IMG/VR virus record: IMGVR_UViG_3300045988_065177
Span: 20,466 to 84,465 of that record
Strand: one strand, 5' to 3'
DNA: 64,000 nt
Origin: a virus
Position numbers and translations under genes: made by a program. Under the pieces are notes generated by a model. That model was given only the letters and a program-made list of their open reading frames with translations. It was not told the DNA's origin and ran no database searches. Position 1 is the stretch's first letter. Each line of letters begins with the position of its first letter. Positions 1-29,968 of this stretch are shown in pieces.

Positions 1-111
1 TGCTACTTAATACCACATCGAATTGATTTATTTCTTCTAGCCTTATCATCAGCTAATTCGATGTTTTTCAAATCATACACTCGTTCGTGCAAATATCCTA
101 CACGTTTCAAT
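1..111 (-). CDS. DGR-type reverse transcriptase, N-terminal fragment; gene runs off the window start
   Basis: Minus-strand frame translates to LKRVGYLHERVYDLKNIELADDKARRNKSIRCGIK(TAG)... The segment VYDLKNIELA..ARRNK resembles the conserved N-terminal 'enL..A...a.kgK' motif of DGR and group II RTs. It lies immediately downstream, in gene orientation, of the DGR template repeat. No ATG in frame (a TTG or GTG start is possible). An in-frame TAG is present. Confidence 0.4.
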
Positions 112-250
112 TTTTTATATATTTCATCGGAAGCGTTCGAGAATTAACCTACTAACACCCTTCATTCAACACTACGTTATCTTTTGCCTAGAGGCAAGGA
201 TATTACTTAGCAAACTAAAAAAAAATAATAAAATGTTTCTAAATATATAA

Positions 251-348
251 TAACTCGACATTGGAATTGGCATTGCTGACGTCATTGTTAGAATTGAAAT
301 AGCTGAGACCTGCATTGCTGCCATTATTCGCGTTGCTGCCTACTAGCA
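251..348 (-). repeat. DGR template repeat (TR)
   Basis: About 98 nt, AT-richer copy of the VR sequences. Every mismatch against VR1 (452-549) and VR2 (29279-29370) falls at an adenine of the TR when read on the minus (gene) strand. The TR lies about 80 nt downstream of the stop codon of the VR1-containing gene. Confidence 0.7.
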
Positions 349-427
349 GTACTTTTTTGCCAATCAACGGTTTTTAGAAGTAATATCCTACGATTTATCA
401 TCTAAATCGATTTTTATATTGTATATC

Positions 428-1600
428 TTAAGATACTCTATTCAGAGTCCTGAACCCGACAAGGGAAGTGGCATTGCCGACGTCAGTGCCAGAATAGAAA
501 TAGCCGAGACCCGCAGTGCCGCCATAATGCGCGCGGCCGCCCACCAGCAGCGTGCGAAGCGCTGTGCTGCTTGCGTTGCAGTAATGGTAATCGCAAATAT
601 AAGTAGTAGCACTTCCTCCAACAGCGGATGGAATTATTTCAGCGGTTTCACCTAAGTCAAATGCCTTAATATAACCATCAGATGCTACTTCGTATCCTGC
701 AACGGTTTTCTCTCCAACTACGTCGGTAAATTCCGATACGTTAGTAGTTGTATAGACAGTGCTAATCTCATTAGCAGCTGCTCTCACTATAACTACTCCG
801 TCCAGGTTAGTCCAAATGTCTCCAAACGGATTATCGAACCCTCTCCAGCGAGGTACTTTAAATGTATGAGTTGCTACTGTATTTGTGCCATCTTGAGCTG
901 TACATTCTGGAATAACTAAATCTTTTACTCCAGTGAAGTTACCAAATTCATTGCAGTAACCACAAGGCGTAAGTGGATATGTTGCATTATATCCTGACCA
1001 ACTTGTAGCTGCGTTAGCCCAATCTGTAACTCCAGGTCCCAAACCCCCTTGATGATATCCATCCGCAGTTAACTCTGCATTATATGCAGCCTAAGAATTA
1101 AAATTAGCATATTCAATGACATAATTCCAGTAGAATATCCATTTGTAATATTCATAGCATAGCAATTCTGAACCAGCATTTGTTGCATATGTTCTCATAG
1201 TAGCTCTAGAAATATTAGTTCTAGGCTTTCCTAAATCACTTCTGAATATATCCTTAGTTTCTAATTCTGTAGTTAGATAATCATCGTAGTTAGCTCTATT
1301 TCCTCCACCTCTAAATGCAGTAGTAGTATTAACTACTGATACAGCTTTTGGAGTTGCGGAGACTGTGGTATCAACTGTACTTCTGTATGCATCTATTAAT
1401 AGTTCAGGAATTTCTACCCATGAATCATCAATTTTGACAGTAGAAGTTCTAACCCATCTTTTGTTTCCATCGCTGCCAGATTTTCCATAAAATTTAGGAG
1501 TATTAACTCTTACTGTTCCATCAGTTCCATCGAGCACAGAAGGAGTACTTCCATCTTCTTTGTAAGCCCAATCGTCCGGATATAAATAGTAATTTACCAC
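428..1600 (-). CDS. Tail-fibre-like DGR target protein, C-terminal part. ORFs 1091..1600 and 428..1042 are joined by a single in-frame TAG at 1091-1093. The gene continues upstream through more TAGs.
   Basis: The two listed ORFs are in the same frame, separated only by TAG and 16 sense codons. The C-terminus ...LVGGRAHYGGTAGLGYFYSGTDVGNATSLVGFR matches the GGxxxxGxxAGxxxx...GFR pattern of the CLec-fold/FGE-like variable regions of DGR targets. A GC-rich island (478-570) corresponds to VR1. The stop codon is TAA at 428-430. Confidence 0.5.
452..549 (-). repeat. DGR variable repeat VR1, at the 3' end of the tail-fibre gene
   Basis: Aligns base-for-base with the TR (251-348). The differences are confined to positions where the TR has A on the gene strand. 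It ends about 20 nt before the stop codon, as is typical for DGR VRs. Confidence 0.7.
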
Positions 1601-4600
1601 ACCGTTATTTGCTACACATCCTCTGTAAGCGGACTAAATAGGGAGGGATTTATGTAATAGTGGATTTCCTATTCTAGTAAGGATAGGAGAAGATACGGTA
1701 ATATCCCATTCTACTCCATAAGAGTATAAGTCTACGTTACTGCTTAACTCTGTGACTTGTTTGCTTAGACTCTATTGTTCTTTTTGTAATTCTTCCCAAG
1801 CAGTATTAAGAGCATTAAATTGTTCCTCTAACTTAGTACTAGTATCTGCCCACTATGCAGTCCCATCTTCAGAAAAGGTTAAAATCTATCCAAGTGTTCC
1901 TCCAGCAGGTATGTGTTTATTTCCAGAAGTAGTTGGGTGTACATAATTATTTGCATTATCTGCAATACCACTAAGTTTCTGTTTTTCAGTTTCTGTGTAA
2001 TTAGCTTCAGAAAGTCCTTTTCCTAATTCTTTATCTACCTTACTTTCCAACTCCGTTTTAGTAGCTAAACCACTTATATCCTAGTGTTCCTTTAAATAAT
2101 TTTCATCATTCTATAACTAAGACACTTTAGTTGGAATGGCACTAGATTTTGCATATGTCTAATCTATAACATTTCCAGAGCCATCATAGGTAGCCTTTAA
2201 GTCATATACGGTTTCTCCAACCTTTATAGATTTGATAGCTGCCATATTATTGTATTATTAAAGTTTCTTCTTCTACATTATGATCTATTCCTTCTATGGA
2301 GGCAGTTAAGTCTTCAACAGCTTTCTACAGTTCAGCCTTGGTAGCGTAGTTCTTTAATGTATCTGGGTCTATTCCAGATCCTCCTATATTTCCTCCAACA
2401 ACTTTTACTGGTTTTGCTGAGTTCTTAAACTACCCTTCAACCCAAATTGTTCCCATACTATTTAAAATATTAATTGTTCATTTTCTCCATCTACCTGTAC
2501 GTTACCAGAACCAGGCTATATTGCATCTATTTTCTTCTACAATTCGTCTACAGCAGCCTTTATTAATTCTTCCACCTCAGCTTTTGTATAGTAGCGTTCT
2601 GTCAGATATTCACTTCTGACATATCCTGTATCCTATATATCTTTTTCTCCATAAGTACAATAGTACGTATCGTTCTCTGTCTTATTATTTTCAACTAAGT
2701 CATCATAATCTGTTTGTGGAAGACATACCAATTTAGGAACCTCTTCTGTAAGAGCAACTTGCTTTCCAGATGCTAATAATCTATTGTCTTCTGTAGTAAG
2801 TTTAACAGAACTTTCAATAGTCTGTTCAGTTGTTTCATCTTCTGAACTTTCTCCAGTTGTTCCCTATTGTACTTCTTTTTCGACAATTTTCTAAATAGTA
2901 ATATCAGAAGTTTCTATAGAGGTTGATTTTAGAAGCTCTGTGCTAAATTCCTTAGAAGCGGCATCCTAATCTTCCTAATATTTCTTCTAGGTAACAAATA
3001 TAAAATCGTCATCACCAGTCTCGGGAGAATCTCCTCTTAAACTTTCTTTTGTCACATACTCCTCTGCTATCTAATCGGAAAGGTCGGTTAATGACTATTG
3101 AGTGGCGTATGTAGATTGAGCATTTTCTTTTGTAAGAAACTTTTCATCTACCTACGAGCTAGTGTAGTATGCTTTAATATCTTCTGTAGTAACGTAGCTT
3201 CCTAGTTTCTATAAACCAGAAACAATTTCATCAATCTATGTCTTTGAGTAATAATTAGTAGCAACCCAGGACTGATATTGATTGGTAGTATGATAATTCT
3301 AATCCAAATATTCCTTAGTAATATAAACCTTTGCATCATTTGTGACGTCATATACATAGTAATATGTATCAGGCTCTACCGTCCCTTCCTCTACTAACTT
3401 TAGATACTCTTCTTCAGTTAATGTTACTAAGTTCGGAATATCCGATTCAGTAGCAATCTAATCTTCACCTATAAATAATCCTTCAGACCTAACGTCTACT
3501 ACTAGCTAGCTCTCTCCCTCTACTACAGGAGATTTTATCTATCCAACAGTGATGCTTTCTAAGGAACCATCTCCATCTACCTTAAGAGTTTTATCTAACT
3601 CGTCTTGGATGGCCTACTAATCTTCCTCATATTCTTTCTTTGTAACGAAGACAAAATCATCTCCTTCCATTCCCTCTCCTCTAAGACTTTCTTTAGTAAC
3701 GAAAATATTGTCTGTTTCTTCCTTAGTATAATACTTAGTCAGGGATAGAGCTAAAGAATCATTAGAGACATAATTAGTAGTTAATTCTTCCAGTGTAGCA
3801 TAATCTGATAGGCTGGCAATAGTGTTATCTAAGTCTGTTCTAATCTATACTACAGTAGTATTAAGGGCCTTCTGTTTTAATTGCTCTTCTATCTTTTTTC
3901 CCCATTCCGCAGATAGGTAAAACTAGTCATCGTCTAAGCTATCCTCATATATATAATAATATGTTTCTGCATGAAGATATGTTTTATCTTCGTCTATAGG
4001 TTTAAAATCTTCTGTGGTATTTTTAGACCATTCCTTATATTCAGCCTCTGTACAGGTGATTATCTAAATAGATTCATAAGAAGCTTTCCAACCTTCTTTG
4101 TATTTAATCTTAGACTTATCTACTAGCATATAAATATTTCCGTTATCTATATTTGAAACGGTCATGCCTTGATAAGCATATTTCTCCGGAATAGAATATA
4201 ATTCGGCTAAATTATCGACTACTGTTCTATTATCAAGAGGTTTAGGAGTTTCTACGGTTAAAGCAACACCTAATGTAGCATCACCTGTATATTTAAATGC
4301 CATTATTGTGATAAAGTAAAGTTAATTTGATGAGGCAATGCTGAAGAATAAGTATCCTTCTTAGTCCATACTTTATAAGGAAATCCATTTATCTATTCGG
4401 TAGAAGTTTCCCAGCCACTTAAATCAACATTTAGGTATCCTAGTCCTCCATCTACTGTAAATGAATTTAGCTAAGTATTACTTCCAGGTAATTTTATAAT
4501 AGCTTTTCCACTTAATGAAAATGTAATAATTCCAGAAGATTGTCCAAATGGAACAAGACTCTATTTGATTAAACTATCTGTATTACCAGAATACCAAGGG

Positions 4601-5892
4601 TAGGTAGCAGTCACCTATGCTGTAGTTGATATTGAACCAGCTTCCACCCTCTTGTCTGTAACCTCTCCCTTGTTGTTAATAAGATATTCTCCAGCAGCAT
4701 AATTTACGGTACCAGAATGCACATAAACACCGATAGAATCATATGTTTCAGATTCTACAGGAGAATCATTATAGGTAATAGTTTCTTCTCTACCAGTTTC
4801 CTCTCCAGCATCATTTTTTATAAATGTTAAAGTAGGGGTAAGTAAAGCGGATCCTACCTCCACAATCTAAGAGGTGAAGCTATAATACAACTAAGGATAA
4901 ACCAAATCTCTAACAACAGTAGGAAATAATAGAGTATCTATAATCTCATTAAACGGCTTTCCTTTCAATTTTTCGACTGTAGTTCCTTGAATAACAGTAG
5001 AAGTAGTATCATCTGGAAGTTCAGTTTGATAAGTGGCTATAGTTTCTAAACTTGTCTATATATTTGTGATATTCTCAGTATTAGAATCTACTTTAGAATC
5101 AGTGTTCTTCTAAGCTTCCTATACTCCCTTAACTTCTTCCTTTACCTCTGTTAGAGATGGTTCCAGATCTTTTACATATATTCCGGGTAGGACTACTGTG
5201 GAAGGTTCTCCTTCCTCCTCTACTGGGGGGATTTCCTACTGAATCAGATGTATTGCATTATCCTCCTACTAGGATAGAATTACTTCTAGAGTATTATCAT
5301 CCTTTATTTCTATGGTTTTGGAGTTTCTCAGACTATTAGTTATCCAATTCTAGATGTTTTTGTCAACATCTATATTTTTGATAGACTCGTTAATATCCTC
5401 TATTGCCTCATTAATCTAGGTTATTTTCTCAGAAAGATTGTTTATGCCAGTTCTGTTAGATTCAATTTCTTCTTCGAGTTCTTCCTTAAGTACAGTAATA
5501 GAAGTTCTGATATTACTTATATCAACTTTTATTTCCTCTATTTCTTCTGTATTAGCTTCGTACTAACTTATAAAGAATAAAGCATAATCTAAGGCATCTT
5601 TTACAGTATTGATATTCTCTGCAACATCACTGGTATAAGTCCATTTCTATTCTATGTACTATACTAAATCTTTCTAGGCTTCTATAGTTCCTTCTATATT
5701 TCCCCAAAGAAGACTCTACTCATCAGCGATACCTAGATTCTTTCTAACCTTAGCTCTTTCTAATTCAGTTCTATATTCTCCAAGATAGTTGTTTCTTAGG
5801 AGAGGTATAGGTTCACTTTTTATTAAATGTCCTTTCTTTCCACAAGGCTTTATATCAGCATTGCTTACCGAAGTGTAAATAGGCTGTATCAT
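1601..5892 (-). CDS. Upstream continuation of the tail-fibre locus: one or more very large TAG-rich structural ORFs. Candidate ATG at 5890-5892, preceded by an AT-rich intergenic stretch.
   Basis: Only short standard-code ORFs are found here (4064..4303, 4615..4863). Hand translation of the minus strand stays open when TAG is read as sense, for example a TAG shortly upstream of 1600 then continues in frame. Plus-strand CTA triplets recur in frame. Confidence 0.25.
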
Positions 5893-6011
5893 TATGATTC
5901 AATAATTGCTATTTAATAAATTCGTGATTATCTAATTTTACGGGTAGGTTAATAAAACAAATTAGATTCAAAATATCCTAATAATCTGGTCTATATCCCT
6001 TTCTAACCCTT

Positions 6012-6776
6012 TTAAGGAAATCCTCATACCTTTTAATAGCCTTTCTTTTAAGAGCATCCACAACCTATATGTTTATGTTCATGGTGATTGTTGCAGAATC
6101 CACCGCAAGTACGGAACATTGCTAACAATCTTTCAGCTTCCATGAATTGTTTAAAGCCTATTAAATAATCTATAATATTAAGTGTCATCCAGATAAAATC
6201 TCTTGCAAATATATCTGCATCATGTTCTCTAGTTAAACACTTATTTAATGAAGAGTCAAAGAGTTTTTTACAGTAGTTAATATAGCACTATTGCAGATTT
6301 CCTGTAAAGAACACATCTACTTTACATTTTTTGATAGTAGTTCCTTCTATATTTCTTTCAAGGATTTCTTTTACAGTACATTCCTCTAGCTCTCCATCTA
6401 TCTCTTTATATAGTTTCTCCCCGTCAGTTATATAGATAGTTTCATAATACTCCTTGTATTCATCAGATGAATTTTCATACCATTTCATATTAGGAAGAAT
6501 TATGTGGTCTACTACATAATATCCATCTTCTTTCACCTTAAATGTACAAGAGTCTAAATCCTCTGTATGGTCATTGAGAAGTACGTCTATCAAAGTAGCA
6601 TCTCCTATACTAACTTTTATGATAGTATTTAGGGTAGCACTTTCACTATACTTATAAGAATCATAGGAAGTTACTACCTCTAAATCTTCATCAATATACT
6701 ATCCATATTCCTTTGAAAAGTCTTCAATAGTTATTTCCCCGTTAATCTGGGTATGTATATCAATACTAAATTCCAT
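6012..6776 (-). CDS. Hypothetical protein, TAG-recoded; includes listed ORF 6288..6593
   Basis: ATG at 6774-6776. The 6288 ORF terminates at TAG (6288-6290) and the same frame stays open down to TAA at 6012-6014. Confidence 0.3.
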
Positions 6777-9700
6777 ATTATAATAATTAAGACTCAGCAG
6801 TAGACCATTGACCATATTGAGCAGGAGTAGAAAATGGTTTCCACTTACCTTCTTGTCGTATACGTCTAGACATAAAAACTGAACTAAATGATAAACTAAT
6901 ATCTTGAGGATAGTCTGTCCATGTATATGACTAACCTTCAGGAGTCGGTGGTAGACTATTTAACTTACCAGCTAGTTCCCCATTCCAATAATAATTATAG
7001 TCATATGCTTTAGTTGGAGTAACAGTTGTTGTTTCATGTCCTTCCGAATCTACATATAAAGGATTTCCTTTCTCATCTGTTTTCTACTTATACTCAATAA
7101 CTGGAGTTATTCCCTCAGTTCTAGTGTATATATTCTAGATAATAGTAGAAACATCACTTGCTACAATCTCATAAATAGTAGTTCCCTGAGATTCATCAGC
7201 TCCCTAGAAAGTAAATTTAGTTCTTTTCCATATGTATGGATTCTCTTCAGTTGGAAGTTCGAAAGTATCAGTCCACTATTTATCAGATAATTTTATCTCA
7301 GATTCTTCAGCAGTATCAGCAGGTAAGTAATGAATCTTAATAATAATATTATTTACCGCTTCACTAGAACCAGAAAGGTCTGACACCTATTTAAATAGTT
7401 TCTTCAAATCCTCTTCCACATTTGATTTGGAACCAGAAGCATTACTAATAATCACTGAACCGTCTGAAATAGGATAAATCTATTGCTAATCCTTATTATA
7501 TACAATTGTTCCAGTTGCCATATTAATGTATTTGTCTTATTTTGTCATTATATGGATTTCCATCATGAAGCTAAGACAACTCTATTTCAGTTCTCTTTTC
7601 TTCTATATCCATTTGTCTATCTTTATATGTAGAATCAGATTGAGCTTTGAGCCAGTTAACCTTATATTCTAACTACATTTTCTGCTGTTCTAATCCTAAT
7701 CTCTACTCATCCAAACTTTCTATCTTCTACTAAGCTTTCTGTAGTTCTTGCTATAACTGCTATGCCTATTGTGAAGTTTCTTCCAGTTTTTCCTATAGCT
7801 ACTATAGCTAATTGTTTTCTTCTTTACGAATCTATACTGCTTTCTTAACCTTATATTTAAGGTCTGTAAGACTCTTAGCAGTTAGTGCTTCAAATATGAT
7901 GTCAGGATCCATTTGCTGACTTTTGACAAACTCTGGAATAATAGCTTTAATAGTTTGTAAATCCTCCATTACCTCAGAGCTAGAAGTTATATGGATGTCA
8001 TAATCAGTAACTGTGAAATATTCTGGAAGTGCTGTAAATATCTGCTAGTATTTATCCCCAAGTATAATAGTACCAGTTAATCCTTTCTTATATGTTATTT
8101 TAGCCTAGTTTAGACTATCCAATAATATCTCACAAGTGATTAGGTCCATCTACTAGAAATAATGCTTAGTTACTATGTAAGAGTTAGTAACACCTTGCTT
8201 AATATTAGTTACAGCATCGTGAGTTTCTATTCCATTTAATCTTTCTCTAAATACTCCAGTTATAGATGATGTAGTTTGTTCTACTGATTGAATTGCTAAT
8301 TCAATAGCCTATACAGCCTAAGCTTTTAAGGTATCATCAAATCCATTGTATATCTAGTTAGGTGCTTGCGCTCCGTCATTTCTCCCTTCCTAAGTAGAAT
8401 CAATCCACATGATACCACCCTTCTTGTATGCTAACCATTTCTACACTCTTTCTGGCCATTTTACGCCTAGGTTAGTAGGAAGCAATGACATATCCATGAT
8501 TACTCCAGCAGTACCGCTGTTAGCTATCAGGTTATCCCTATAATAATTTAACAAGTCATATCTATCCTGTAGATGTGCACACTTTAATATCAGAGAGTAC
8601 GGTTGTTGAGAACGATTTAAGAAATATACCCCATTTACAGACAAAGAGCAGAAATTAGGATTATCTTTTGACCTCATAACAGTCTTGTCTAGACCTCTCA
8701 GAATATATATTTCTTCTCCAATTCTAATGGTGTTGTATCTCTACATTACAAAATCGTCATCAGTTTCTATCCACTCTACATCATAAACAGGGATTAACTA
8801 AAATCTATGAGCACTATATTCATTATCTGGGTATCCAGGAATAGTTTCATGATTCTAGTCTTCATTTACTATAGTACAAGTGTCACCATAAACTCTTCTA
8901 TAAACTGCAGCTGAATCATCAGCTCTCCATTCATCTTTTAGTCTTTTCAAATCTTCTCTAGAGATTTCTTTTCCGTATTTAGCTAATATCTGGCTTTTAC
9001 TCATCCATTTTCTAACTACTACTCTGTACGAATTTCTAACATATGGAGATTCTGGATTCCTATCTACGAAAGTATTTAAAGGATTCAGAACTTCTATTTC
9101 TATGTTAGTTCCAGAGGATGATGATTTTACTCTGAAAAATGTATAGCCAGTAATTAATAAATCTGTAAGTAACTATCGGAGTTTAGTTATTAAGTCGGTT
9201 TCTCTAGACTGCATAATATAATGAATAATATTCTATGCAGCTATCTCATATTGAGAAATAAAAGACTAATCAATGTCTTGAATAATTTTATCTAACTAAG
9301 TCTTCACGGCTTTATCTGTAATATCTTTTCCGTCGATAAATTTCAGAATAGAATTACTTAAATGGTCTCTAAGAAATTTAACTATCCCTTTAGTTATTTC
9401 TAACTATTTTTCTCTGGTGATATTACTAATGGTATCTGAATCCTTACAAGAAATCTTCGGAAGGATAGGGGTTCCTAGATATTCCCCTACTAGAGCATCT
9501 ACGTGCTTTTTTAGTAATGGTGTAAATTCTACAGAAGTAGGACTACCTATTCCGAAGTTTTCTTCCAGGTAACGAAACTATTCTGGGTCTCTCTTTCCGT
9601 TATAGTAATTATAGGCTTTCTATAATTCGTACTTATCATATACAAGCTCCGCAATAGCCTCGTTCGTCTTGTCTATCAGTTCTTTTTCTTTCATAACATA

Positions 9701-9891
9701 AATTATGCTGTTCTGGAGGAAGTTTAGTTGCATTATAGTATTTAACTCTTTGTAACTTCCTACTTCTTAATTCTTCCTTTATAAATGGGAGAAATTCTTC
9801 ATCAGGTAAATCAGCTATAATGACTAAAGGCATCTCTGACCTATCAAAGTTAAACGATACCTTATAACCAACTGGATCTAGGTTCTGAATT

Positions 9892-11322
9892 TCAAGTCCA
9901 CCTATGTATTCCATTTTGTACAAGTCTCTCATATAACCTAGGATCACTTGTTTCAATTCTGTATGGGTCATCGTATTCATTTTTTTGTATGTTAGTTTCA
10001 AAAGTCTTAGAAGTTGGTATAACCCCAAATCTTTTGATTCCCCTCTCGTCGTAATAATAACCATAATCTTGGAATTGTTCAACTTCTTTTTCAACAAGCA
10101 CTGGCTATCTTCCTGACAATTCCTAGTCTGCCAATTCTGTCATTCCTACAGCGGCTACAATATCGAATTTACCTTTATTCTCATCATTATATCCAGTAAA
10201 TTGGTCTAACATTTCTTCAAACCATATAGTATGACAGAAATCCTCAATAAAGGCTGCAGTCAAATCAGTATGTTGTTCTATAATAGTTTTGGTAGCAGGT
10301 GTTCCATACTATTTAGTAGTTCCATTCTTAACGTCTGTTAGAGTAGCTCTAGGTCTTTTCATAAAGTAGTTTAAACAACCCTTTTCTCTAGCCCAGGTAA
10401 TCATACCTACACGGGTAGCTTCTATGTTTATTCTACAATTATAGTATCTAACTAAACACATAGCTATTTTATAGGCTTCTCTAATGTCATTAGGTCTGTC
10501 TTTATACATAGCAACATACTACGGTTCGTTTAGACCAAATGCTCTTCTTTTTATAGTTATACAGAAATCAGAAGGATCTCTTGTTTCTTTTGAAGTTTGA
10601 CTAGCTCCTATATCAATACCGTCTATTCCTGCAACATATAAATCATGCATTTCTTTGTACGCTGGAGATTCAAATTCTTCTCCCCTTTCCTCAGCTTCCT
10701 ATCTAAGTTTATCCATCTACTCTTTATACAAATCAGACCATACAGGATGTTCAAGTATTTTTACTTTTCCGTTAATATTAGGAATCCATTTAAAACCATC
10801 TATATTATCCTAGGTGTGTTTATTATTTTTATAGAAGTAGTCTATGTATCCAGATTCTGGTCTTGGTCCTATTTTCTTAAGTCTTATATTAGCTAACTGG
10901 TCCGCAATAAGAATCTTGTTGAACTTGTTAACACCTTCAAGATTAAATGCTTCTTCTGCATTCCAACATCGTTCGGCACACTTCTTTAGATAGTCGTCTG
11001 GAACTGCTAATAAATTGTCACGCTCTTCCTATAGATACTTTTTATATTCTACTGTATTACATACACCTCTATGGTCCATGTATTCTGAATTTAGAGACTA
11101 GACAAAATATGGAATGAAGAACCCACTTTCAATAGTAGTTCCGTCCTGTGTATAATTGTGTCTAAATGGAAGAACCTTGTAAGCTTTTGGATTGTAATAT
11201 ATCTTCTTAAGACCTGCTAATGGAGCACCCATATCTCCCGATGTGTTATCGTACAGCTTTTTATCCGTACTTCTATAGCTTCTTATTCGCTATAGTCCAG
11301 CATACCTTTTCACCCACTTATT
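9892..11322 (-). CDS. terL: Terminase large subunit, C-terminal nuclease-domain segment (TAG-recoded)
   Basis: Hand translation in the frame of ORF 9892..10101 gives ...YVAGIDGIDIGASQTSK...DFCITI...YVAMYKDRPNDIREAYKIAMCLVRYYNCRINIEATRVGMITWAREKG..., a typical RNaseH-like terminase nuclease signature. The frame is open from an in-frame TGA at 11323-11325 down to TGA at 9892, with several in-frame TAG. It includes listed ORFs 10309..10509 and 9892..10101. Confidence 0.4.
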
Positions 11323-11377
11323 TCAGTTGGGGTGTCGAACACTCTTGGGCATATTATATTTATTCAATGCCTATGCG

Positions 11378-12289
11378 TTACGATAACCCAAAGCCTTTCG
11401 CAATCTCTGAGTTTATCTCGGGATTAACATCACAGTCTTCCCCGATATTGCTCGATAATCTTCTAGAAGATTCCTCTTCTAGACGGCAGAACTCTAAAAA
11501 CTTTTCGTATTTTCTATCTAAATATATGGTAGCATTTTCATATAAATATCTAGCTAATCTTCTAGACGGTATATCGGAAAATTTTAATTCAAATGCTTGA
11601 TTAGTATAATTTTCAGTACTTTTATTTCTGATATATCCTTTATTAGAAAATAAACAATTTATTGAAGTTAAGAAAGATTTAGTACCTACTATCGTAAGTC
11701 TTGTTCTTAATTTATCACCATCTTTAGATATTGTTAAACATCCATCCCCGTCAACATAACCTCTAATAAAATGTAATATATTTACTGTATTTTTAAATAA
11801 TTTCAAATTAGGAAATGCCAGAGTTAATGACTTCTGTGGGACACATCCCAATCTATTTAATGTATTCCATAAATGCTTGTTGCGAACAGATAAGTGACAG
11901 AATTTAATTCCGTTAGTTTCTCCGATTCTAATTTCTGTTGTTAATTGAAGGAATTTTCTAAATTTCTCTAAATGATCCTTATCTTTTAAAGATAATCTTA
12001 TTTCTACTCTATTACCCTCTTTAGAAATATTTCCATCTGCATACATGAATCCTAACCAGTAGAACTATTCTTCTGTATTCATAATGTCAAAACAATTCTC
12101 ATTCAATCTACATTTATTTTGTTGGTTAATTATTTCATAACCCCATTTTTTAAATCTTTCCGATAAAGTTTGACGTTTAATATTATATTTGCTACCAAGT
12201 TTTGTCAAACTTCTTGCTTCTTCTGGAGTATTCAAATACTCTTCTAAAGCTTTTTTACAAATTTCATCAATTTCTCCACTTGTTCTCAT
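11378..12289 (-). CDS. LAGLIDADG homing endonuclease with N-terminal HTH domain; in-frame TAG at 12065-12067 joins ORFs 12065..12289 and 11378..12046
   Basis: Motifs W-LGF-MYADGNIS (motif 1, immediately after the TAG) and FIRGYVDGDGCLTI (motif 2). The N-terminal 74 aa look like a helix-turn-helix. The two listed ORFs are in the same frame, separated by TAG and 6 codons. AT-rich promoter-like DNA lies upstream at 12290-12394. Confidence 0.65.
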
Positions 12290-12394
12290 AATATAAAAAT
12301 TTACTAGTTATTATTCAACTATAATTAAAAATTTTATATATTATAAGTACTGGAGGAGTAATATTAAATTAGTGTAATTAATACGAAATTTTTA

Positions 12395-13423
12395 TTAAAG
12401 TTTTATTCTACCAGTACCTCCAAATAACATTGTTCCACGAGGTTTACCCTGAACTTCACAAAGCTCTTGTCCCTGCACTACAGCAGTATCTAGTCCAGGC
12501 CAGGACCCTGCTTCATCATATATTAATAAGTCAACACGGTCTCCACGAATATTAGATGCCTTAGCTCCATTTATTCCAACTACTTCTGATTTAAATCCAA
12601 CATCCTCAAACTGTCCGTTTACCTTAATCTGTTTACCGGACTTCTTTCTTAAGTCTTGGTCAATCAAGCGTAGTTTGAAGAATCCTCCTCCTGTACAAGT
12701 ATTCAAGAATGTTAAAGCATTATCAAACTTACTAAAAGTACCTTTAAGGAAGGTATCATTAAAACAGGTAATCATTACTCTGCTTCTTCTGATTACTGAA
12801 TACATTCTTGCAGATAAGGACGCATTTATTTCGGAGAATCCAATAGAACGAGCTTTCATAAGAGCTGCGTGTTTATGCAGAACTCTAGCCATCTACAGAT
12901 AATGAAAGAACATATAATGAGATGCGAAAAATATAGGAAAGTCACTACTTGTTCCTTCTCCGGATGCTTTGTTATCATCAATAATAGGAAGCTAGTAGAA
13001 GTTTAGGAAGAAATAGTTATCTCCAGTAATTGTATAACCATTAACAGTCATTCCATATTTACATCTTCTATACTATTCCTTCCAAAACTCATTATATCTC
13101 TTACTATCTTTTAGATATGGACAATACTTTCCAGTTTTTCTATACACTTCTCTGGTCTCAGTAAACCAATCTGGGTCGAAGTCAAGACCATGTGTTTCAT
13201 CTATTGGTCTATATCCAGTTATTTCATAAGATAAAGTAGGGTCAAATACCTCTATCTTATCTCCTCTTTTTACATCCCAATAATCAGCATTTTTGCCTCT
13301 TTCCTCTCTTATCTTCTATACTAGTTCTCTAGCTTCTTTGGCATCCTCTTTTTGTTCTTTCTCTCTTACCTAATCTACTATATTCTAGATTTCTTCAGGT
13401 AATATTTTTTTCTTTCTAGGCAT
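12395..13423 (-). CDS. terL: Terminase large subunit, N-terminal ATPase segment (TAG-recoded), ending at TAA 12395-12397
   Basis: Listed ORF 12395..12892 (..DLLIYDEAGSWPG.., Walker-B-like) continues upstream through TAG at 12893-12895 and further in-frame TAGs to an ATG near 13421-13423. The hand-translated upstream part is ...YRRCKYGMTVNGYTITGDNYFFLNFYQLPIIDDNKASGEG... Confidence 0.4.
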
Positions 13424-14805
13424 AATTAAAAGTCTCCTGGGTCAAAGCCGTCTGTAGCTCCACCTCTTACAGTAGATTGTTCTGTAAGCTCTTTCTTAAC
13501 CTGCTCTTCTAGTGTTACTAATTCTTCATGAACTTTATGAAGAGTAGCCATTTCTTTCATTACCTTTTCAGCTTGAAAGACGGGTTTGCCATTATTATCA
13601 CGTTCATTTAAATCTACTATAGTATCAAAATAATCAATAAACTAGTCAGCTGCTCTTTTAGCTGCTTCTAGAAGTTTTATTGATTTGTTAGAATCCTACA
13701 ATGCTCGGTATTTTCTACAGGCTTCCCTGAATAACGGGTCATTAAATTCGGATTCAGATAGTCCAGAGTCACTAATAGCTTCATCATGTCTTTCATGTTC
13801 TGAATATTGGCTATAGGGACTCTTCCAATCAATAGCTAGATAAATGTAAGATAATTCTCTAGTTACTCGTTCCTTGTCAACAGATTTATCTCTCTGTATC
13901 AAAGCCTTAAACTCTTTAACTAGAAGAAGCTCTGGTTCATTTATCTCTAACTATTTAGTTAAAGTGTTATAATTAAATACATTCATACTCATCAATCATT
14001 AACATTAACATCTTTAATCTTTTTATTTCATTTTAGAACCGCATTTACTTACTTTCATTTTAGAACCACAAGCATCCTTCTTAGCATACTTTGTTCTATC
14101 TGGAACCCATTTTCCATTTTTGAAATTTCCCTTGTGTCCCCTATTTGCCATGACCTCCTAGTCATTATATTTATTAATGGACACAGAATCCCTAGATGCT
14201 TCATCCTTTGCAGATTTCATATCCTTTTTATACTAAGCTCTTCCAGCTTTGAACTTGTCAACTTCATTAGCTTTCTTAGTAACCTTAGTTCCTTTCTATG
14301 CTTTTTGGCAAGCTTTGCAGATTCTTCCTCCCTGTTTAAAATAAACAAGTTCCTCTCCTTCTGGGCATACTCCTTTTAATTTTTTATAGTATTCTAGTTT
14401 AGCTCCAAGTCTAGCCATAACTCCGCCTTGCATCTTCTACATAAATTCTTGATACTTGGCTTTAATTCCATCTTCTCCAAGCTATTCAGCGTAAGCCTAT
14501 AAATCTTGCTCTGATTGTAATTGTATTCCTTGTGCTTGGGCATCTTGTATCAAGTATGCCATGAATGCCTTCTGTAATTCTTCCTAATTAGCCATTACTC
14601 TTCTACTTTAATTAAATCCTTTGTATTAAATACTGCTTCCTGCATTAATCCAGAATCAGTAAACCATCTACATCTTAGTCCTCGTAATCCTTGGTTATCT
14701 TTAAATAAAGCTGCTTCTCTTCTTAGAACAAGCATAACTGGAGAGTGCATTACTTTACACTACCGTAAAGTAACACAATCCCCAGGCTTAAAATAAACTT
14801 TTTCA

Positions 14806-20153: not shown

Positions 20154-20170
20154 AACTATTAATTTTGGCG

Positions 20171-20242
20171 TTGCCCTACTAGGATTCGAACCTAGACTAA
20201 ATGATTTAGAGTCATCTGTGCTGACCATTACACCATAGGGCA
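20171..20242 (-). tRNA. Amber suppressor tRNA, anticodon CUA (reads UAG), derived from tRNA-Gln
   Basis: Minus-strand sequence TGCCCTA-TG-GTGT-AATGGTCA-GCAC-A-GATGA-CTCTAAA-TCATT-TAGT-CTAGG-TTCGAAT-CCTAG-TAGGGCA-A folds as a canonical cloverleaf with anticodon loop CTCTAAA (34-36 = CUA). Its D-arm, T-arm and 4-nt variable loop are nearly identical to tRNA-Gln(UUG) at 33541-33612. Confidence 0.75.
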
Positions 20243-22620: not shown

Positions 22621-22690
22621 TCCCCATTAGTATAATGCATTGCGCCTTCCTCTAAAGAAGGAGATTCTGGTTCAAACCCGGAGTGGGGAA
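22621..22690 (+). tRNA. tRNA-like element with possible CUA anticodon loop; irregular D-arm (possible second suppressor or pseudo-tRNA)
   Basis: TCCCCAT..GCG-CCTTC-CTCTAAA-GAAGG-AGAT-TCTGG-TTCAAAC-CCGGA-GTGGGGA-A. It has a good acceptor, anticodon and T arms. The anticodon loop is identical to that of the suppressor tRNA, but the D region is 2 nt short and does not pair conventionally. Confidence 0.3.
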
Positions 22691-25058
22691 CTTAGTATTT
22701 GAGGACTACAGCTACTTGTAGGCTCTATTTGCTGTTAAGGACTATAATGGGTACGCCCAGAGACTAATGCAGAGCATCTCTTATACCAAACAGTATGCTC
22801 CTTGATACTGGAGAGATGTCTTATCGAGAGATAAGGCAAAGTATTGTGAGATTATACACTATATAATCGAAAATAGCCATTTGGCTATAGGCACAGGAAA
22901 GTTCTGAGACAATTGTGAGGCACAGCGGTGCCTCTACTCCTAAGATAAGAACAACCTTTACGTGGTTTAGGAGATAAGTAAGCTATTCAAGCTGAAACTA
23001 ATAGTTCTAGTAATAATTAATAAAAATGTTTATCATGGAAATTATCAAGATTAAAGAACAGTCTATCAATGCAGAAGAATCTAAGCTCTATAAGAAAATG
23101 TTAGATTCTCTAGGAGTAATCTACGAGACAGAGAAAATTAAGAAGGAGCAAATAGATGTTCCTATCTACGTTCTATTTGAAGAGCTAGATGTTAGGGCAA
23201 ATAATGCTTTAAGGTCTGTTACTAATGACGTAACCATAACTCTAAGTACTTTCGTTAAACAGTATTCAAAGAGAGATATACTAAGAGTTAGAAATGTAGG
23301 AAAGCATACATTGACTCTAGTAGTAGAAGCTTTTAGAAAATTTGGATACGAATTAAACTGAGAATTGGAAGTCCTTCGCCCTTTGCTGGCTTAGAAGTAA
23401 AACAGCACTTTTAATAATTTAATAGATAGTAATTTATGATTGTAGATACGATGACAGGTAAAGATATTGTCAGGGAATTTAACCGCGATATAGACTCAAT
23501 AGATAAAATTGCAGAAAGAATGGCCGTAAAGAAAAGGCGAATACTGTTGAAAATGAAAAATCAAATGACTTTTCCACACTTTGGAGAAATAACTCAGATG
23601 AAAGTTGGAAATAACAGATATTATTTAGTATGGAAATGTCTAAGTAGAAATAGTTTAAATTATACGGTATTTACTAAATGTGGCAAAAGAATATATGCTT
23701 ATTCTACTGATACTACAGTACTGGAGTTTACACGTCATTTTTTAGATAGGTATAACGAGAGGTTTAAAATTGTAGGACTAGATAATATACTAAGGAATAT
23801 CTGCAAAGATTTTTGCTTAGGAAAAATATTTGATTCTACAGTTGTCACAGATACAGGACTATTTATAATGACTGAAACAGACTACGGATTCAGTGCAGTT
23901 ACATGCATGAACGATTTATCGAGGAAAAACAATTTAGAAAGATTAGAAAAAATAAGAAAAGGTCTTTCTATATTAGACCCTAAAAGTAAAGATGAAGAAA
24001 TAATGCAATTGTATAAATTGGGTTTATATGAAGATCCTCTGATGAGTCTTTGAAAATTAAGACGAAACTACCTAGAAATAGGTAGTCAGGATTAAAAGAA
24101 AAAGAAAATGAGAAAATTCAACAGATTACACTGCGATTCAACTGTTCGCGCAAGATTTACAGATTCATGGGGAAGAGTGATAACTCTCACTGGAACCCAC
24201 GCCTTCGAGTATACCATTCACATAGAAGGCATCAGAACAGTTACAGAAACATTTGTGAATGGAAAATTAGCAAGAAAAGATTTAACGAATTAAAAAGAAA
24301 ACCATGAGAAAAAGATTCAAAGCTGCGAGAATAGCATCTTCAGACAACTACGAATTGTCTAGAAGAATACATTCTCAGTATTTAAAGAGATGGCACAATG
24401 CTAACATCGAGGTAATCACTGAAATTACCACATCATTAGTAATCAAAGAACAAAAATACATAAGAGTATTTGGAGAATTAATTCCGATTTCGGAAGAGGA
24501 ATTGAGAATCCATAACACTCTGATAGTTGAGAACTAATATGGAAGATTTATTAGCAATTGTTAGATGGGGCATTACTTTACCCGTTTGGTTATTAGAACA
24601 TATACTGAAAGGTTTAACTTTCATTGTTCTAGTATTTGGACTTGTCGTTATGGCGATTTTATTCCCGCTATTTCGATCTACTTGGCGTCGTACAGGCGAT
24701 TCTCGTGTATTTAAGTATGCAACAAAGTGGAGAGGAAACTATCCACTAACAAAAAAAGTATTTAGTTTATGGCAATAATGAGAAGAATCACCGAAATAAA
24801 CGGTGAGATAATTATGGTGGAAACTATGATTATTGTAGGCAATATAATCCTTTGTACAATTCATATTAATGGAGAGCTAGTTAAGTATGAAATATTATCT
24901 GTTGGACAGTTATGGGAAGATCGTTAGGTCTTTCCGTAGCTGGTCAGAAGCTAACAAATTCAGAATAGTGATGAATAGATTGGATTGGAGGATTGTACCA
25001 TGACCTATATAGTAGTATTCATAATATTAATTATCATTTGGAAGGCAATTGAAGAACA

Positions 25059-28928: not shown

Positions 28929-29489
28929 ATGAAAAAGACAATTGAAATTGAATGTCCAGATGGTTATAAACCCATCTATAATGCCGAAACTGGCAATGTT
29001 GAAATCGTTCCAGAAAACATTATGGGACGGATAAGAACCTATGAGGATGCTGTAAACTATCTAGGGTGTGTTACTAGAGATACTATTTACTACAATAGAT
29101 CTGTAAATTCTCTAGCTAAGTTGCAGACAGTCTTGGATGCGCTAAATGAAGGCCACAAGTTCAATCTGTTAACTGGTACTATATGGTATCCCTGGGTTCG
29201 CTTCTTTAGAATGAAATCAGTTCCGAAGGATGCAGAAGTCATTGGTCACTTCCGTTATCAGGGCGAGAAATTCGCGTTGGTGGGCGGCCACGCGTATGAT
29301 GGCGGCGATGCGGGTCTCGGCTCTTTCTATTCTAACAATGGCGTCGGCGTTGCCGATTCCGCTGTCGGGATGCTTGCGTGCAAATCTGAAGAGATTGCCA
29401 AATACGTATCAACCCAGTTTGGAAAGCTAGTGTTCGATGCTTGTTTTGCAAGACATTTCAAGGGTGAAGAATTTGAATGGCTTGACTAA
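28929..29489 (+). CDS. Second DGR target protein (contains VR2); small CLec-like C-terminal domain
   Basis: ...GEKFALVGGHAYDGGDAGLGSFYSNNGVGVADSAVGML.. is homologous to the tail-fibre VR1 region (LVGGRAHYGGTAGLGYFYSGTDVGNATSLVGFR). A GC-rich island at 29270-29370 lies inside an otherwise AT-rich gene. Confidence 0.6.
   Translation: MKKTIEIECPDGYKPIYNAETGNVEIVPENIMGRIRTYEDAVNYLGCVTRDTIYYNRSVNSLAKLQTVLDALNEGHKFNLLTGTIWYPWVRFFRMKSVPKDAEVIGHFRYQGEKFALVGGHAYDGGDAGLGSFYSNNGVGVADSAVGMLACKSEEIAKYVSTQFGKLVFDACFARHFKGEEFEWLD
29279..29370 (+). repeat. DGR variable repeat VR2 (remote target, opposite strand, 29 kb from the TR)
   Basis: Plus-strand sequence aligns with the reverse complement of the TR (251-348). 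I found 13 differences, all at TR adenines (for example gcaAtgcAggtctcAgctAtttcA.. versus gcgAtgcGggtctcGgctCtttcT..). Confidence 0.65.
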
Positions 29490-29968
29490 TGAAAAAGTTC
29501 CTTGTAATTATGCTTGCTATGCTCTGGATGAGCGTAGCAGCTTTTTCTCAAATAACTATATCACAAGAAGACTATGATAAGTTGCCTGGTGAAACTAGAA
29601 CTCAAATCGAGAAGATAACAACAGAGAAAGCTATAAAGGGTGAAATCAAGGAAGTTTCTGAGTATGCAAATCTTGGTAAGGAAATTGGCGTAGCAGTCAA
29701 TGAAACCTTAAAAGCAGTTGAAGATTCAGCCATAAGAATAGCAGAATCCGACCTAGGACAAACAGCAATAACTATCGTAGTGTGGAAACTCCTCTATAAG
29801 GAGATAGCCGGAATTGTAGTAGGCACCATACTATTAGGAATATCAGTATTTATGCTATTAACTGGTAGAGGTAGACTATCTAAAAACGATGAAGATGCTG
29901 GAGGTTGGATAAGTGTGGTAGGAGGAGCTGTATTCTTTATATCTTCAATGATTTGTATATTTGGCTGA
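29489..29968 (+). CDS. Membrane protein (signal peptide plus 2 C-terminal TM helices), immediately downstream of the VR2 gene
   Basis: MKKFLVIMLAMLWMSVAAFSQ... and hydrophobic C-terminal segments. Confidence 0.45.
   Translation: MKKFLVIMLAMLWMSVAAFSQITISQEDYDKLPGETRTQIEKITTEKAIKGEIKEVSEYANLGKEIGVAVNETLKAVEDSAIRIAESDLGQTAITIVVWKLLYKEIAGIVVGTILLGISVFMLLTGRGRLSKNDEDAGGWISVVGGAVFFISSMICIFG

What the first reader, a model, noticed from the sequence alone, without database searches (positions are those of the whole stretch)
1..1100. Diversity-generating retroelement: TR plus VR in the tail-fibre gene, with adenine-specific differences; RT N-terminus at the window edge
Three copies of a roughly 95-nt sequence are present. 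A lower-GC copy lies in non-coding DNA (251-348). GC-rich copies lie at the 3' end of the minus-strand tail-fibre gene (452-549) and in a plus-strand gene (29279-29370). In base-by-base alignment of the non-coding copy against each GC-rich copy, I found every substitution at a position where the non-coding copy carries A on the gene strand. That is the diagnostic signature of DGR mutagenic retrohoming, with the non-coding copy as TR and the others as VRs. The VR-encoded peptide (LVGGRAHYGGTAGLGYFYSGTDVGNATSLVGFR) fits the conserved GG....G..AG...(17)..GFR scaffold of CLec-fold DGR variable regions. Immediately downstream, the minus strand from about 111 to 1 encodes an RT-like N-terminal motif (VYDLKNIELADDKARRNKS) and runs off the window. 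A hairpin (TTGCC-TAGA-GGCAA, 183-199) lies in the TR-RT spacer, where DGR RNA priming structures are expected. No avd-like ORF is visible between target and TR. The RT reading frame itself contains TAG, so mutagenesis would be coupled to the recoded late phase.
Basis: seen in the sequence. Interest (0 to 1): 0.9.

Follow-up and report, generated by a model that had tools for sequence, protein, structure and literature searches.

The report
Active two-target DGR in gut phage
This is a genuine, currently active diversity-generating retroelement in a large crAss-like gut phage that reads TAG as glutamine; it rewrites the tip of a tail protein and also a small protein of unknown function 29 kb away, and it is a good example of a known kind of system rather than a new one.

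Summary
A non-coding template repeat (TR, 252-349, minus strand) matches two GC-rich variable repeats. VR1 (453-550) ends a 605-aa tail-protein gene. VR2 (29274-29371, plus strand) lies in a 186-aa ORF. All 20 TR/VR1 differences and 20 of 24 TR/VR2 differences fall on TR adenines; the other four are at the repeat edges. I recovered the rest of the contig. The reading frame leaving the window at position 1 is a 424-aa reverse transcriptase with IGNYLSQ and YADD motifs, and its closest solved relative is the Bordetella DGR enzyme. It carries nine in-frame TAG codons, one of them encoding the Q of the SQ motif. Across hundreds of related contigs the TR is invariant, while both targets are hypervariable only at TR AAY/TAT codons, so the element is active. 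The hairpin at 184-197 is the first stem of a conserved TR-RT spacer RNA (Rfam RT-17-like) and shows covariation. No Avd gene was found. DGRs with amber-recoded RT genes are already published for Zeta crAss-like phages, and non-adjacent second targets are known in Bacteroides phages. The possibly new point is the second target: a widespread small protein family encoded in non-structural regions. Its fold and function remain unresolved.

The parts
1..110 (-). 5' end of the DGR reverse transcriptase gene. The probable TTG start is at 110-108, and the first in-frame TAG is at 5-3. The ORF continues for 424 codons beyond the window edge.
   Evidence: The window is contained exactly in L044 of the same contig, and window position 1 = L044 12245. 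The RT ORF is L044 12136-13410 and has IGNYLSq, YADD and 9 TAG codons. Pfam RVT_1 hit on the called gene.
111..136 (-). A-rich leader with an upstream ATG (136-134) and a poly-A tract whose length varies between relatives. In this window the ATG is out of frame with the RT.
   Evidence: The A-run is 6 in 21 loci, 5 in 4 loci and 7 in 3 loci. Only the 7-A form puts the ATG in frame.
113..201 (-). TR-RT spacer RNA, a weak match to Rfam RT-17 (RF03020). Its first stem is the hairpin TTGCC/TAGA/GGCAA at 184-197.
   Evidence: 28.7 bits (gathering score 40.4), E = 0.001-0.0025. The same family hits at the same place upstream of the RT in 8 crAss-like phage DGR loci and in relative L005 (26.9-44.5 bits). 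The 5-bp stem is kept in 10/10 sequences, with compensatory changes at 2 pairs.
252..349 (-). Template repeat (TR): non-coding, 30 adenines in 98 nt. It encodes the notional peptide LLVGSNANNGSNAGLSYFNSNNDVSNANSNVE, rich in AAY codons.
   Evidence: It is identical (0 mismatches) in 24 of the 28 related contigs in which the full TR could be read.
350..452 (-). Spacer between the target-1 stop codon region and TR. It holds no accessory ORF.
453..550 (-). VR1, at the 3' end of the tail-protein gene. It ends 7 codons before the stop.
   Evidence: 20/20 mismatches at TR-A; population hypervariability only at TR-A positions.
428..2245 (-). Target gene 1: a 605-aa tail protein with 9 in-frame TAG codons read as Gln.
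   Evidence: The exact TAG-to-Q translation is on record in the protein collection (P0361). PHROG 5302 'tail protein', E = 2e-85. It is 30-59% identical to DGR-adjacent tail proteins of crAss-like phages and of phage Versailles.
29274..29371 (+). VR2, on the opposite strand and 28.7 kb from TR. It codes residues 116-148 of target 2.
28929..29489 (+). Target gene 2: a 186-aa protein of unknown function. It has no TAG codons and no hydrophobic segment. It lies among tRNA genes in the block of the genome that is not recoded.
   Evidence: PHROG 11581, unknown function. Homologues are hypervariable at 11 TR-AAY/TAT codons.
20170..20242 (-). Suppressor tRNA (anticodon CUA) derived from tRNA-Gln. It is needed to translate the RT and target 1.
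   Evidence: (repeat I3).
22621..22691 (+). Second tRNA with anticodon CUA, not similar to any other tRNA in the window.

Best explanation
This is an active diversity-generating retroelement of the accessory-less 'target-TR-RT' type, carried by a roughly 189-kb Zeta-crAss-like phage of the human gut that decodes TAG as glutamine. The minus-strand late transcript would provide the TR plus a structured spacer RNA, and the RT gene lies immediately downstream. The RT has nine TAG codons, so it can only be completed once the phage's Gln-derived suppressor tRNA is working. By analogy with Bordetella phage BPP-1, the RT copies the TR RNA into cDNA and misincorporates opposite adenines. The cDNA then replaces the homologous segment in two genes. 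One is the 3' end of the adjacent tail-protein gene (VR1). The other is an internal segment of a small gene 28.7 kb away on the other strand (VR2). The result randomises 11 codons (10 AAY and 1 TAT) in each protein, while selection keeps scaffold glycines. What is shown: the repeats, the adenine specificity, the intact DGR-type RT, the invariant TR, the population hypervariability of both VRs, the conserved spacer hairpin, and TAG = Gln. What is inferred: the RNA intermediate, self-priming by the spacer, late timing, and the role of the tail protein in host recognition.
For: Adenine-specific mismatches: VR1 20/20, p = 9e-14; VR2 20/24, with the other four at the edges. The same contig encodes the full RT (424 aa, IGNYLSQ, YADD) continuing from window position 1. 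The RT of relative L002 (86% nt identity to the window contig's RT) hits Bordetella bRT 8ub7 at E = 2.5e-44, against 4e-15 or weaker for retron and group II RTs. It also hits Pfam RVT_1 and PHROG 1423. Target 1 in 120 homologues: 11 columns with 2.1-3.6 bits of entropy, exactly the TR AAY/TAT codons, while the rest of the protein averages 0.15 bits. Target 2 in 75 homologues: the same 11 TR codons are hypervariable. At the nucleotide level, 25 VR1 copies from independent contigs differ from TR at 73% of A positions and 0.9% of non-A positions, while TR is identical in nearly all contigs. Spacer RNA: RT-17 hits at the same place in 9 related DGR loci, and the stem shows covariation. TAG = Gln: 11 of 14 TAG/sense substitutions against relatives are CAA or CAG, the suppressor tRNA is derived from tRNA-Gln, and the conserved Q of the SQ motif is a TAG codon. 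The late minus-strand block is full of in-frame TAG and the plus-strand block has none. Literature: DGRs in 18 of 43 Zeta crAss-like genomes, amber codons in seven RT genes, and Avd only in two genomes (PMC12386605). Architecture A without accessory genes makes up 29% of DGRs, and an avd-less lineage 3 is reported whose sublineage 3A is confined to Bacteroides (PMC5758913).
Against: No reads were available, so diversification within one sample or one infection cycle was not observed. The evidence for activity is between-contig diversity. No BPP-1-like GC-rich IMH or stable hairpin was found 3' of either VR: fold energies are no better than shuffles, and only about 5-8 nt of homology follow the last variable adenine. 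How the 3' end of the target is recognised is therefore unexplained. The C-type-lectin fold was not confirmed for either target: there is no Pfam or PDB sequence hit, and the AF2 models of target 2 were poor. The RT start codon is uncertain (TTG; the upstream ATG is out of frame in most relatives).
Confidence: 0.93

Rival explanations
1. A fossil DGR. The cassette once diversified the two genes but is now inactive, and the VR/TR differences are historical.
For: The upstream ATG of the RT is out of frame in this window and in most relatives. Under the standard code the RT has nine stop codons. No Avd gene was found. The authors of PMC12386605 raise the question of whether such cassettes still operate.
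Against: Genomes 91-97% identical over the cassette region, with an identical TR, each carry a different VR1 and VR2. The differences are confined to TR-A positions, with up to 16 different residues per column. The RT ORF is intact under TAG = Gln with all catalytic motifs, and TAG = Gln is independently supported. A TTG start in frame is present in all relatives.
Confidence: 0.04
2. An ordinary repeated protein motif. In this view the three copies are paralogous coding segments or a recombination hotspot between two lectin-like genes, and the adenine bias is a by-product of GC/AT composition differences.
For: VR1 and VR2 are 83% identical to each other and encode a similar peptide. TR is AT-richer than the VRs.
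Against: 0 of 68 non-A positions differ in VR1 against 20 of 30 A positions. Compositional drift would also change T, and would change C/G in the reverse direction. TR is non-coding and invariant across contigs. It sits directly upstream of a DGR-clade RT. The same design recurs in the unrelated Bacteroides phage Versailles.
Confidence: 0.01
3. Concerning the second target only: the 186-aa protein is a virion component, such as a small receptor-binding or fibre-tip accessory protein, that happens to be encoded outside the structural module. It would then be diversified for the same reason as the tail protein.
For: It shares the VR scaffold with the tail protein. The Versailles homologue was annotated 'tail protein' by its depositors. 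Published viral DGR targets are mostly tail structure proteins (PMC8144416).
Against: In both phages it lies in non-structural regions. Here it sits among tRNA genes and genes with tRNA-ligase, AAA and HNH domains, in the block of the genome that is not recoded. In Versailles it sits between NinB-like and replisome-organiser genes. The 'tail protein' label probably reflects only the shared VR segment. It has no signal peptide or TM segment.
Confidence: 0.5

Closest known systems
[quoted passage not shown]
   Same: Genome size is similar (188,837 bp against 182-189 kb) and the tRNA count is comparable (at least 25 in this 64-kb window, against 24-27 per genome). Both have a CTA suppressor tRNA, amber recoding, a DGR next to a tail-fibre gene in the structural block, amber codons inside the RT gene, the GxxxSQ motif, a long RT (414 aa reported against 424 here), and no Avd.
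   Different: That paper describes only tail-fibre targets for this group and leaves open whether the cassettes are active. Here a second, distant target is shown, and both are hypervariable in the population. Identity with those named genomes could not be tested because they are not in the collections searched.
Bordetella phage BPP-1 DGR (mtd-avd-TR-brt)
   Same: Order target(VR)-TR-spacer-RT on one strand. VR at the 3' end of a tail/receptor-binding gene. Adenine-specific mutagenesis. An RT of the same clade (8ub7, E = 2.5e-44). A structured RNA in the TR-RT spacer (RT-10 in BPP-1 according to PMC5737381; RT-17-like here).
   Different: There is no avd. No GC-rich IMH or strong cruciform lies 3' of the VRs. 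There are two targets, one remote and on the opposite strand. The RT has an extra basic C-terminal extension of about 90 aa (pI 9.9). The RT needs stop-codon suppression.
Avd-less DGRs: Architecture A and Lineage 3, with Bacteroides-restricted sublineage 3A (Wu et al. 2018, PMC5758913)
   Same: TR-RT core with no Avd, HRDC or MSL, in phages whose closest RT and portal relatives are Crassvirales and other Bacteroidota phages (host inferred, not tested). Non-adjacent targets within 50 kb are common in phage-associated DGRs.
   Different: Placement of this RT in their tree was not tested. An acidic ORF (121 aa, pI 4.7) overlapping the RT 3' end recalls their CH1 accessory class (160-169 aa, pI 4.7). 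However, homology was not tested, and the ORF also occurs in crAss-like phages without an RT.
Two-target DGRs of Bacteroides phages: Bacuni F1/F4 (PMC8143477) and phage Versailles (ON453897)
   Same: One target is adjacent to the cassette and one is distant in the same phage genome. Versailles has the same trio: a homologous tail protein, a DGR RT, and a homologous small protein of about 190 aa carrying VR2.
   Different: Bacuni phages have Avd and DUF1566/Fib_succ targets. I found no published description of the Versailles DGR in the library searched. The TR sequences are unrelated.
Rfam RT-17 RNA (RF03020; Weinberg et al. 2017, PMC5737381)
   Same: Position immediately upstream of an RT gene. 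The 5' hairpin CCUUGCCUCUNGGCAAAAG and the UAGUAG...CGAA core are shared.
   Different: The score is below the family's gathering threshold (28.7 against 40.4 bits). Only the first stem is supported by covariation here.

Membership tests
Diversity-generating retroelement (DGR) | Reverse transcriptase of the DGR clade with the (I/L)GxxxSQ motif and YxDD | tested here: met
   The window contig's RT has IGNYLSq at 182-188 and YADD at 214. The best PDB hit is Bordetella bRT 8ub7, E = 2.5e-44, about 30 orders of magnitude better than retron or group II RTs (on relative L002).
Diversity-generating retroelement (DGR) | TR/VR pair whose differences fall at TR adenines | tested here: met
   VR1 20/20 at A. 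VR2 20/24 at A, with the other four at the repeat edges.
Diversity-generating retroelement (DGR) | TR close to the RT gene and conserved, while VR varies among related genomes | tested here: met
   TR ends 142 nt upstream of the RT start. TR is identical in 24 of 28 related contigs. VR1 differs at 73% of A positions and 0.9% of non-A positions. Protein-level hypervariability was shown for both targets.
Diversity-generating retroelement (DGR) | VR at the 3' end of a protein-coding target gene | tested here: met
   VR1 ends 7 codons before the stop of the 605-aa gene. VR2 lies at residues 116-148 of 186, so it is internal, with 38 codons following.
Diversity-generating retroelement (DGR) | Accessory variability determinant (Avd); present in about 74% of DGRs, so not universal | tested here: not met
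   There is no ORF between VR1 and TR. Pfam gives no hit for the small ORFs flanking the cassette. This was not an exhaustive search of the 189-kb genome. PMC12386605 reports Avd in only 2 Zeta genomes.
Diversity-generating retroelement (DGR) | IMH / IMH* pair and a hairpin 3' of VR (BPP-1 model) | tested here: inconclusive
   VRs end GTCGGG where TR has GTCGAG, and this G is fixed in all homologues. The shared 3' homology is only a few nt. Small hairpins 3' of VR1 and VR2 fold no better than shuffled sequence (z = -0.2 and -0.5).
Diversity-generating retroelement (DGR) | Variable region displayed on a C-type-lectin fold | tested here: inconclusive
   No Pfam or PDB sequence hit for either target. 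AF2 models of target 2 had pLDDT 45 and 53, and the Foldseek hits were meaningless. Indirect support: target 1 is homologous to crAss-like tail proteins annotated 'similar to sulfatase, major tropism determinant'.
Rfam RT-17 RNA (RF03020) | Score at or above the curated gathering threshold | tested here: not met
   28.7 bits against 40.4. Of the related crAss-like loci, only cr6_1 passes (44.5 bits).
Rfam RT-17 RNA (RF03020) | Location directly upstream of an RT gene, and a conserved 5' hairpin | tested here: met
   The position is the same in 10 loci. The 5-bp stem has 0 broken pairs and 2 pairs with compensatory changes.
Zeta crAss-like phages (proposed Echekviridae) | Genome of about 155-190 kb, many tRNAs, gene blocks on opposite strands, stop-codon recoding in some members | tested here: met
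   Contig of 188,837 bp. 25 tRNAs including two with anticodon CUA. A recoded minus-strand block and a standard-code plus-strand block.
Zeta crAss-like phages (proposed Echekviridae) | TerL (large terminase) phylogeny within the Zeta clade | not tested
   Only the portal was compared. It has distant hits to Crassvirales portals (FpV4 and others, 21%) and 53-61% identity to unannotated gut phage records.

The most novel reading that the evidence does not exclude
The second target may not be a virion protein. It belongs to a widespread family of small soluble proteins (about 190 aa), with more than 800 and more than 3,500 relatives in the two searches. These are encoded in early or non-structural regions of very different Bacteroidota phages: this Zeta crAss-like phage, and the 58-kb phage Versailles together with Bacteroides prophages. 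In each case the protein is co-diversified with the tail protein from the same TR. If it acts inside the cell early in infection, for example by binding a variable host factor or defence protein, it would be a DGR used by a phage for something other than receptor recognition.
Probability: 0.3. Interest if true: 0.65.

Novelty: new member of a known kind. Interest (0 to 1): 0.35.

Why it matters
The finding confirms that the DGRs of the large, recoded crAss-like gut phages are working now and are not relics. The published survey of these phages left that question open. It also shows a tidy dependency. The RT cannot be made without the phage's own amber-suppressor tRNA, and even its signature glutamine is a TAG codon. 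Hypermutation is therefore probably confined to the late, recoded phase. The practical lesson is that standard-code gene calling hides such RTs. The less expected point is the second target. A small protein of unknown function, outside the structural genes, is diversified in parallel with the tail protein. The same pairing occurs in an unrelated Bacteroides phage that can be cultured (Versailles), which makes the function of this protein family experimentally approachable.

Tried and rejected
1. Finding the contig. Megablast of window 1-6000 against INPHARED phages gave no match. An exact 60-mer search in IMG/VR gave none.

2. Look-ups of standard-code ORF fragments failed because the collection's genes were called with TAG = Gln. 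The contig was finally reached through the listing of cluster members.

3. Fold of target 2. Two AlphaFold runs gave pLDDT 45 and 53, even after adding the Versailles-type subfamily. The Foldseek hits were meaningless. Profile and sequence searches of the PDB gave nothing.

4. BPP-1-like hairpins 3' of the VRs, and a globally stable TR-spacer RNA fold, were no better than shuffled sequence.

5. Only stem 1 of the spacer RNA is supported. RNAalifold found no second conserved stem in the MAFFT alignment.

6. ORF121 as a DGR accessory protein. This acidic ORF overlaps the RT 3' end. It is conserved downstream of the RT in cr7_1, cr55_1, cr50_1 and Versailles. It is also present in IAS virus and cr111_1, where no RT gene is annotated next to it. 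It is therefore not clearly part of the DGR.

7. The upstream ATG as the RT start was rejected. It is in frame in only 3 of 28 loci.
Full report
**The observation**

The window holds three copies of a 98-nt sequence. They are at 252-349, at 453-550 (a direct repeat 201 nt away) and at 29274-29371 (inverted). I read them on the minus strand, which is the coding strand of the adjacent gene.

- The AT-richer copy at 252-349 differs from the copy at 453-550 at 20 positions. All 20 are adenines in the former: 20 of 30 A sites are changed and 0 of 68 other sites (Fisher p = 9e-14).
- Against the distant copy there are 24 differences, 20 of them at adenines. The other four lie at the outermost three bases of the 5' edge and one base of the 3' edge.
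- A scan of the whole window with the template's adenines treated as wildcards finds no fourth copy.
- GC content is 0.45 for the template and 0.62 for both variable copies, in a 0.35 window.

The one correction is that 'every substitution at A' holds for the core of VR2, not for its edges.

**The genes**

VR1 ends seven codons before the TAA stop of a minus-strand gene at 428-2245. That gene is open for 605 codons only if its nine TAG codons are read through. Exactly that translation, with Gln at TAG, is on record in the public protein collection for this contig. The protein matches PHROG 5302 'tail protein' at E = 2e-85. It is 30-59% identical to the tail proteins that sit next to DGR reverse transcriptases in crAss-like phages. 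These include cr7_1, cr55_1, LMMB and phage Versailles, plus cr52_1 and cr56_1, where the tail protein is annotated 'similar to sulfatase, major tropism determinant'.

VR2 codes residues 116-148 of a 186-aa plus-strand ORF at 28929-29489. This ORF has no TAG codon and no hydrophobic segment.

**The reverse transcriptase**

The minus-strand frame that leaves the window at position 1 reads KLKRVGYLHERVYDLKNIELADDKARRNKSIRCGIK-TAG. The window comes from a 188,837-bp human-gut contig, ERZ909639 k127_24285. After several failed look-ups I retrieved the flanking 10 kb of the same contig as L044. The window sequence 1-2245 is contained in L044 exactly.

The frame continues to a 424-codon ORF with IGNYLSQ and YADD and nine in-frame TAG codons. 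The glutamine of the DGR signature SQ is itself a TAG codon. The RT of a relative (L002, 86% nt identity over the RT) hits the solved Bordetella DGR enzyme 8ub7 at E = 2.5e-44. Retron and group II intron enzymes score about 1e-15.

**The genetic code**

- The minus-strand block 428-14595 is full of in-frame TAG, up to 32 per gene. Almost every long plus-strand ORF from 23 to 63.6 kb has none; the few with TAG mostly overlap longer TAG-free ORFs.
- There are two tRNAs with anticodon CUA. One is a clear derivative of the window's tRNA-Gln.
- Where this contig and close relatives differ at a TAG codon, the other codon is CAA or CAG in 11 of 14 cases.

TAG therefore means Gln. The RT can only be completed when suppression is working. 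That this times mutagenesis to the late phase is an inference, in line with the hypothesis of Borges et al. cited in PMC12386605.

**Is it active?**

- Target 1. In 120 homologues (91-97% identical to the query region), 11 columns carry 2.1-3.6 bits of entropy and up to 16 residue types. These are exactly the ten AAY codons and one TAT codon of the template. The rest of the protein averages 0.15 bits.
- Target 2. The same eleven template codons are the hypervariable columns in 75 full-length homologues.
- Nucleotide level. Thirty IMG/VR contigs share the template core exactly. The full template is identical in 24 of the 28 related contigs in which it could be read. 25 VR1 copies differ from it at 73% of A positions and 0.9% of other positions.
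- Selection. Several template adenines are G in nearly every VR (Ser-to-Gly scaffold positions and the final GAG-to-GGG). This indicates selection or an IMH-like fixed difference.

This is the pattern of an element that keeps rewriting both targets. Within-sample variation could not be examined.

**The spacer RNA**

It is the first stem of a match to Rfam RT-17: 28.7 bits, below the 40.4 gathering score, E about 0.001. The same family hits at the same place, ending at the RT start, in eight crAss-like phages and in relative L005. One of these, cr6_1, is above threshold at 44.5 bits. In a ten-sequence alignment the 5-bp stem is never broken. Two of its pairs show compensatory changes: GC/AU five each, and CG to GC and UA.

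Weinberg et al. described RT-1 to RT-19 as motifs next to RT genes. They placed RT-10 in the TR-RT spacer of BPP-1 and proposed a priming role (PMC5737381). The analogous role here is inferred.

**What I did not find**

- No Avd: there is no ORF between VR1 and TR, and no Pfam hit for the neighbouring small ORFs.
- No GC-rich IMH and no stable hairpin 3' of either VR.
- No fold for the second target: AF2 models had pLDDT 45 and 53.

Avd-less DGRs are common. Architecture A makes up 29% of DGRs and lineage 3 lacks avd, with sublineage 3A restricted to Bacteroides (PMC5758913). Only two Zeta crAss-like genomes have Avd (PMC12386605).

**The second target**

It lies in the block of the genome that is not recoded. 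It is surrounded by tRNA genes and by genes with tRNA-ligase, AAA and HNH domains. Its only homologue in the annotated phage collection is a 193-aa protein of Bacteroides phage Versailles, 32% identical. That protein is encoded between recombination and replication genes.

Versailles turns out to have the same design: a template next to a DGR RT, VR1 at the end of a homologous tail protein, and VR2 in this small protein. Its mismatches are adenine-specific apart from one shared T-to-G at the 3' end. The Versailles-type family has more than 3,500 relatives, many in Bacteroides chromosomes. It is hypervariable at its own template's AAY codons. Whether the protein is a virion component or an early intracellular factor is open.

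**Comparison with what is known**

- DGRs next to tail-fibre genes, with amber codons inside the RT gene, the GxxxSQ motif, long RTs and no Avd, have been described for Zeta crAss-like phages of 182-189 kb with CTA suppressor tRNAs (PMC12386605). This contig fits that group, although TerL phylogeny was not done.
- Non-adjacent targets within 50 kb are common in phage-associated DGRs (PMC5758913).
- Two-target DGRs are published for Bacteroides uniformis phages (PMC8143477).

The element is therefore a new, well-documented member of a known kind. What I did not find in the literature searched is the second-target family and its conserved pairing with the tail protein.

**Verdict**

Novelty is modest and interest is moderate to low (0.35). 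The second target is the one lead worth following.

Noticed in passing
window 111-136 (minus strand); L002, L005, L006-L035: The poly-A tract between an upstream ATG and the RT's in-frame TTG varies in length: 6 A in 21 loci, 5 in 4 loci and 7 in 3 loci. The ATG is in frame only in the 7-A form. Either the TTG is the real start, or tract length modulates RT expression.
   Followed up: partly
L044 12136-13410 (same contig, beyond window position 1): The conserved glutamine of the DGR signature motif IGNYLSQ is encoded by TAG in this contig. This is an internal control showing that TAG is read as Gln.
   Followed up: yes
L044 13355-13720 (same contig); L036, L038, L042, L004; L045, L046: An acidic 121-aa ORF (pI 4.7) overlaps the 3' end of the RT gene. 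It is conserved in that position in cr7_1, cr55_1, cr50_1 and phage Versailles. It recalls the acidic CH1 accessory class of avd-less Bacteroides DGRs (PMC5758913). However, homologues also occur in IAS virus and cr111_1, downstream of a 'transferase' gene and a tail-protein gene respectively, with no annotated RT gene nearby.
   Followed up: partly
L044 about 13140-13410 (RT residues about 335-424): The RT has a basic C-terminal extension of about 90 aa (pI 9.9) that Bordetella bRT lacks. It is shared with the RTs of LMMB (53% identity) and cr7_1 (34%). It could conceivably stand in for the basic Avd partner.
   Followed up: no
proteins P0177, P0276, P0281, P0298, P0317 (alignment A3): Some homologues of the second target carry partial tandem duplications inside the variable region. 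These would fit imprecise cDNA integration.
   Followed up: no
window 22621-22691 (+): A second tRNA with anticodon CUA shows no similarity to tRNA-Gln or to any other tRNA in the window. Its amino-acid identity is unknown.
   Followed up: partly
window 345 (TR index 4); VR1 copies in relatives: The only non-adenine position that varies appreciably is at the 5' edge. It is T in TR and G in 9 of 25 VR1 copies, giving a Leu/Arg polymorphism. It is probably outside the segment usually replaced.
   Followed up: partly
window 29489-29968 (+): The gene overlapping the stop of the second target encodes a 159-aa protein with an N-terminal signal-like segment and two C-terminal hydrophobic segments. 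It is not conserved next to the Versailles homologue.
   Followed up: partly
window 31896-32540 and 52153-52258 (+): There are families of 33-nt-period repeats rich in GCAGAAGC (Ala/Glu/Lys coiled-coil-like). One set lies inside a 657-aa ORF (31017-32990) and another is near 52.2 kb.
   Followed up: no
window 38443-38524 (+): ARAGORN calls a tRNA-Ser with the unusual anticodon ACT, inside a dense tRNA cluster. It may be a miscall or an atypical tRNA.
   Followed up: no
L045 2872-3471 (IAS virus); L046 2899-3330 (cr111_1): In crAss-like phages without an RT, an unannotated gap of 430-600 nt separates the upstream gene ('transferase' in IAS virus, tail protein in cr111_1) from the ORF121 homologue. 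This is where TR and RT sit in DGR-bearing relatives. It could hold DGR remnants.
   Followed up: no
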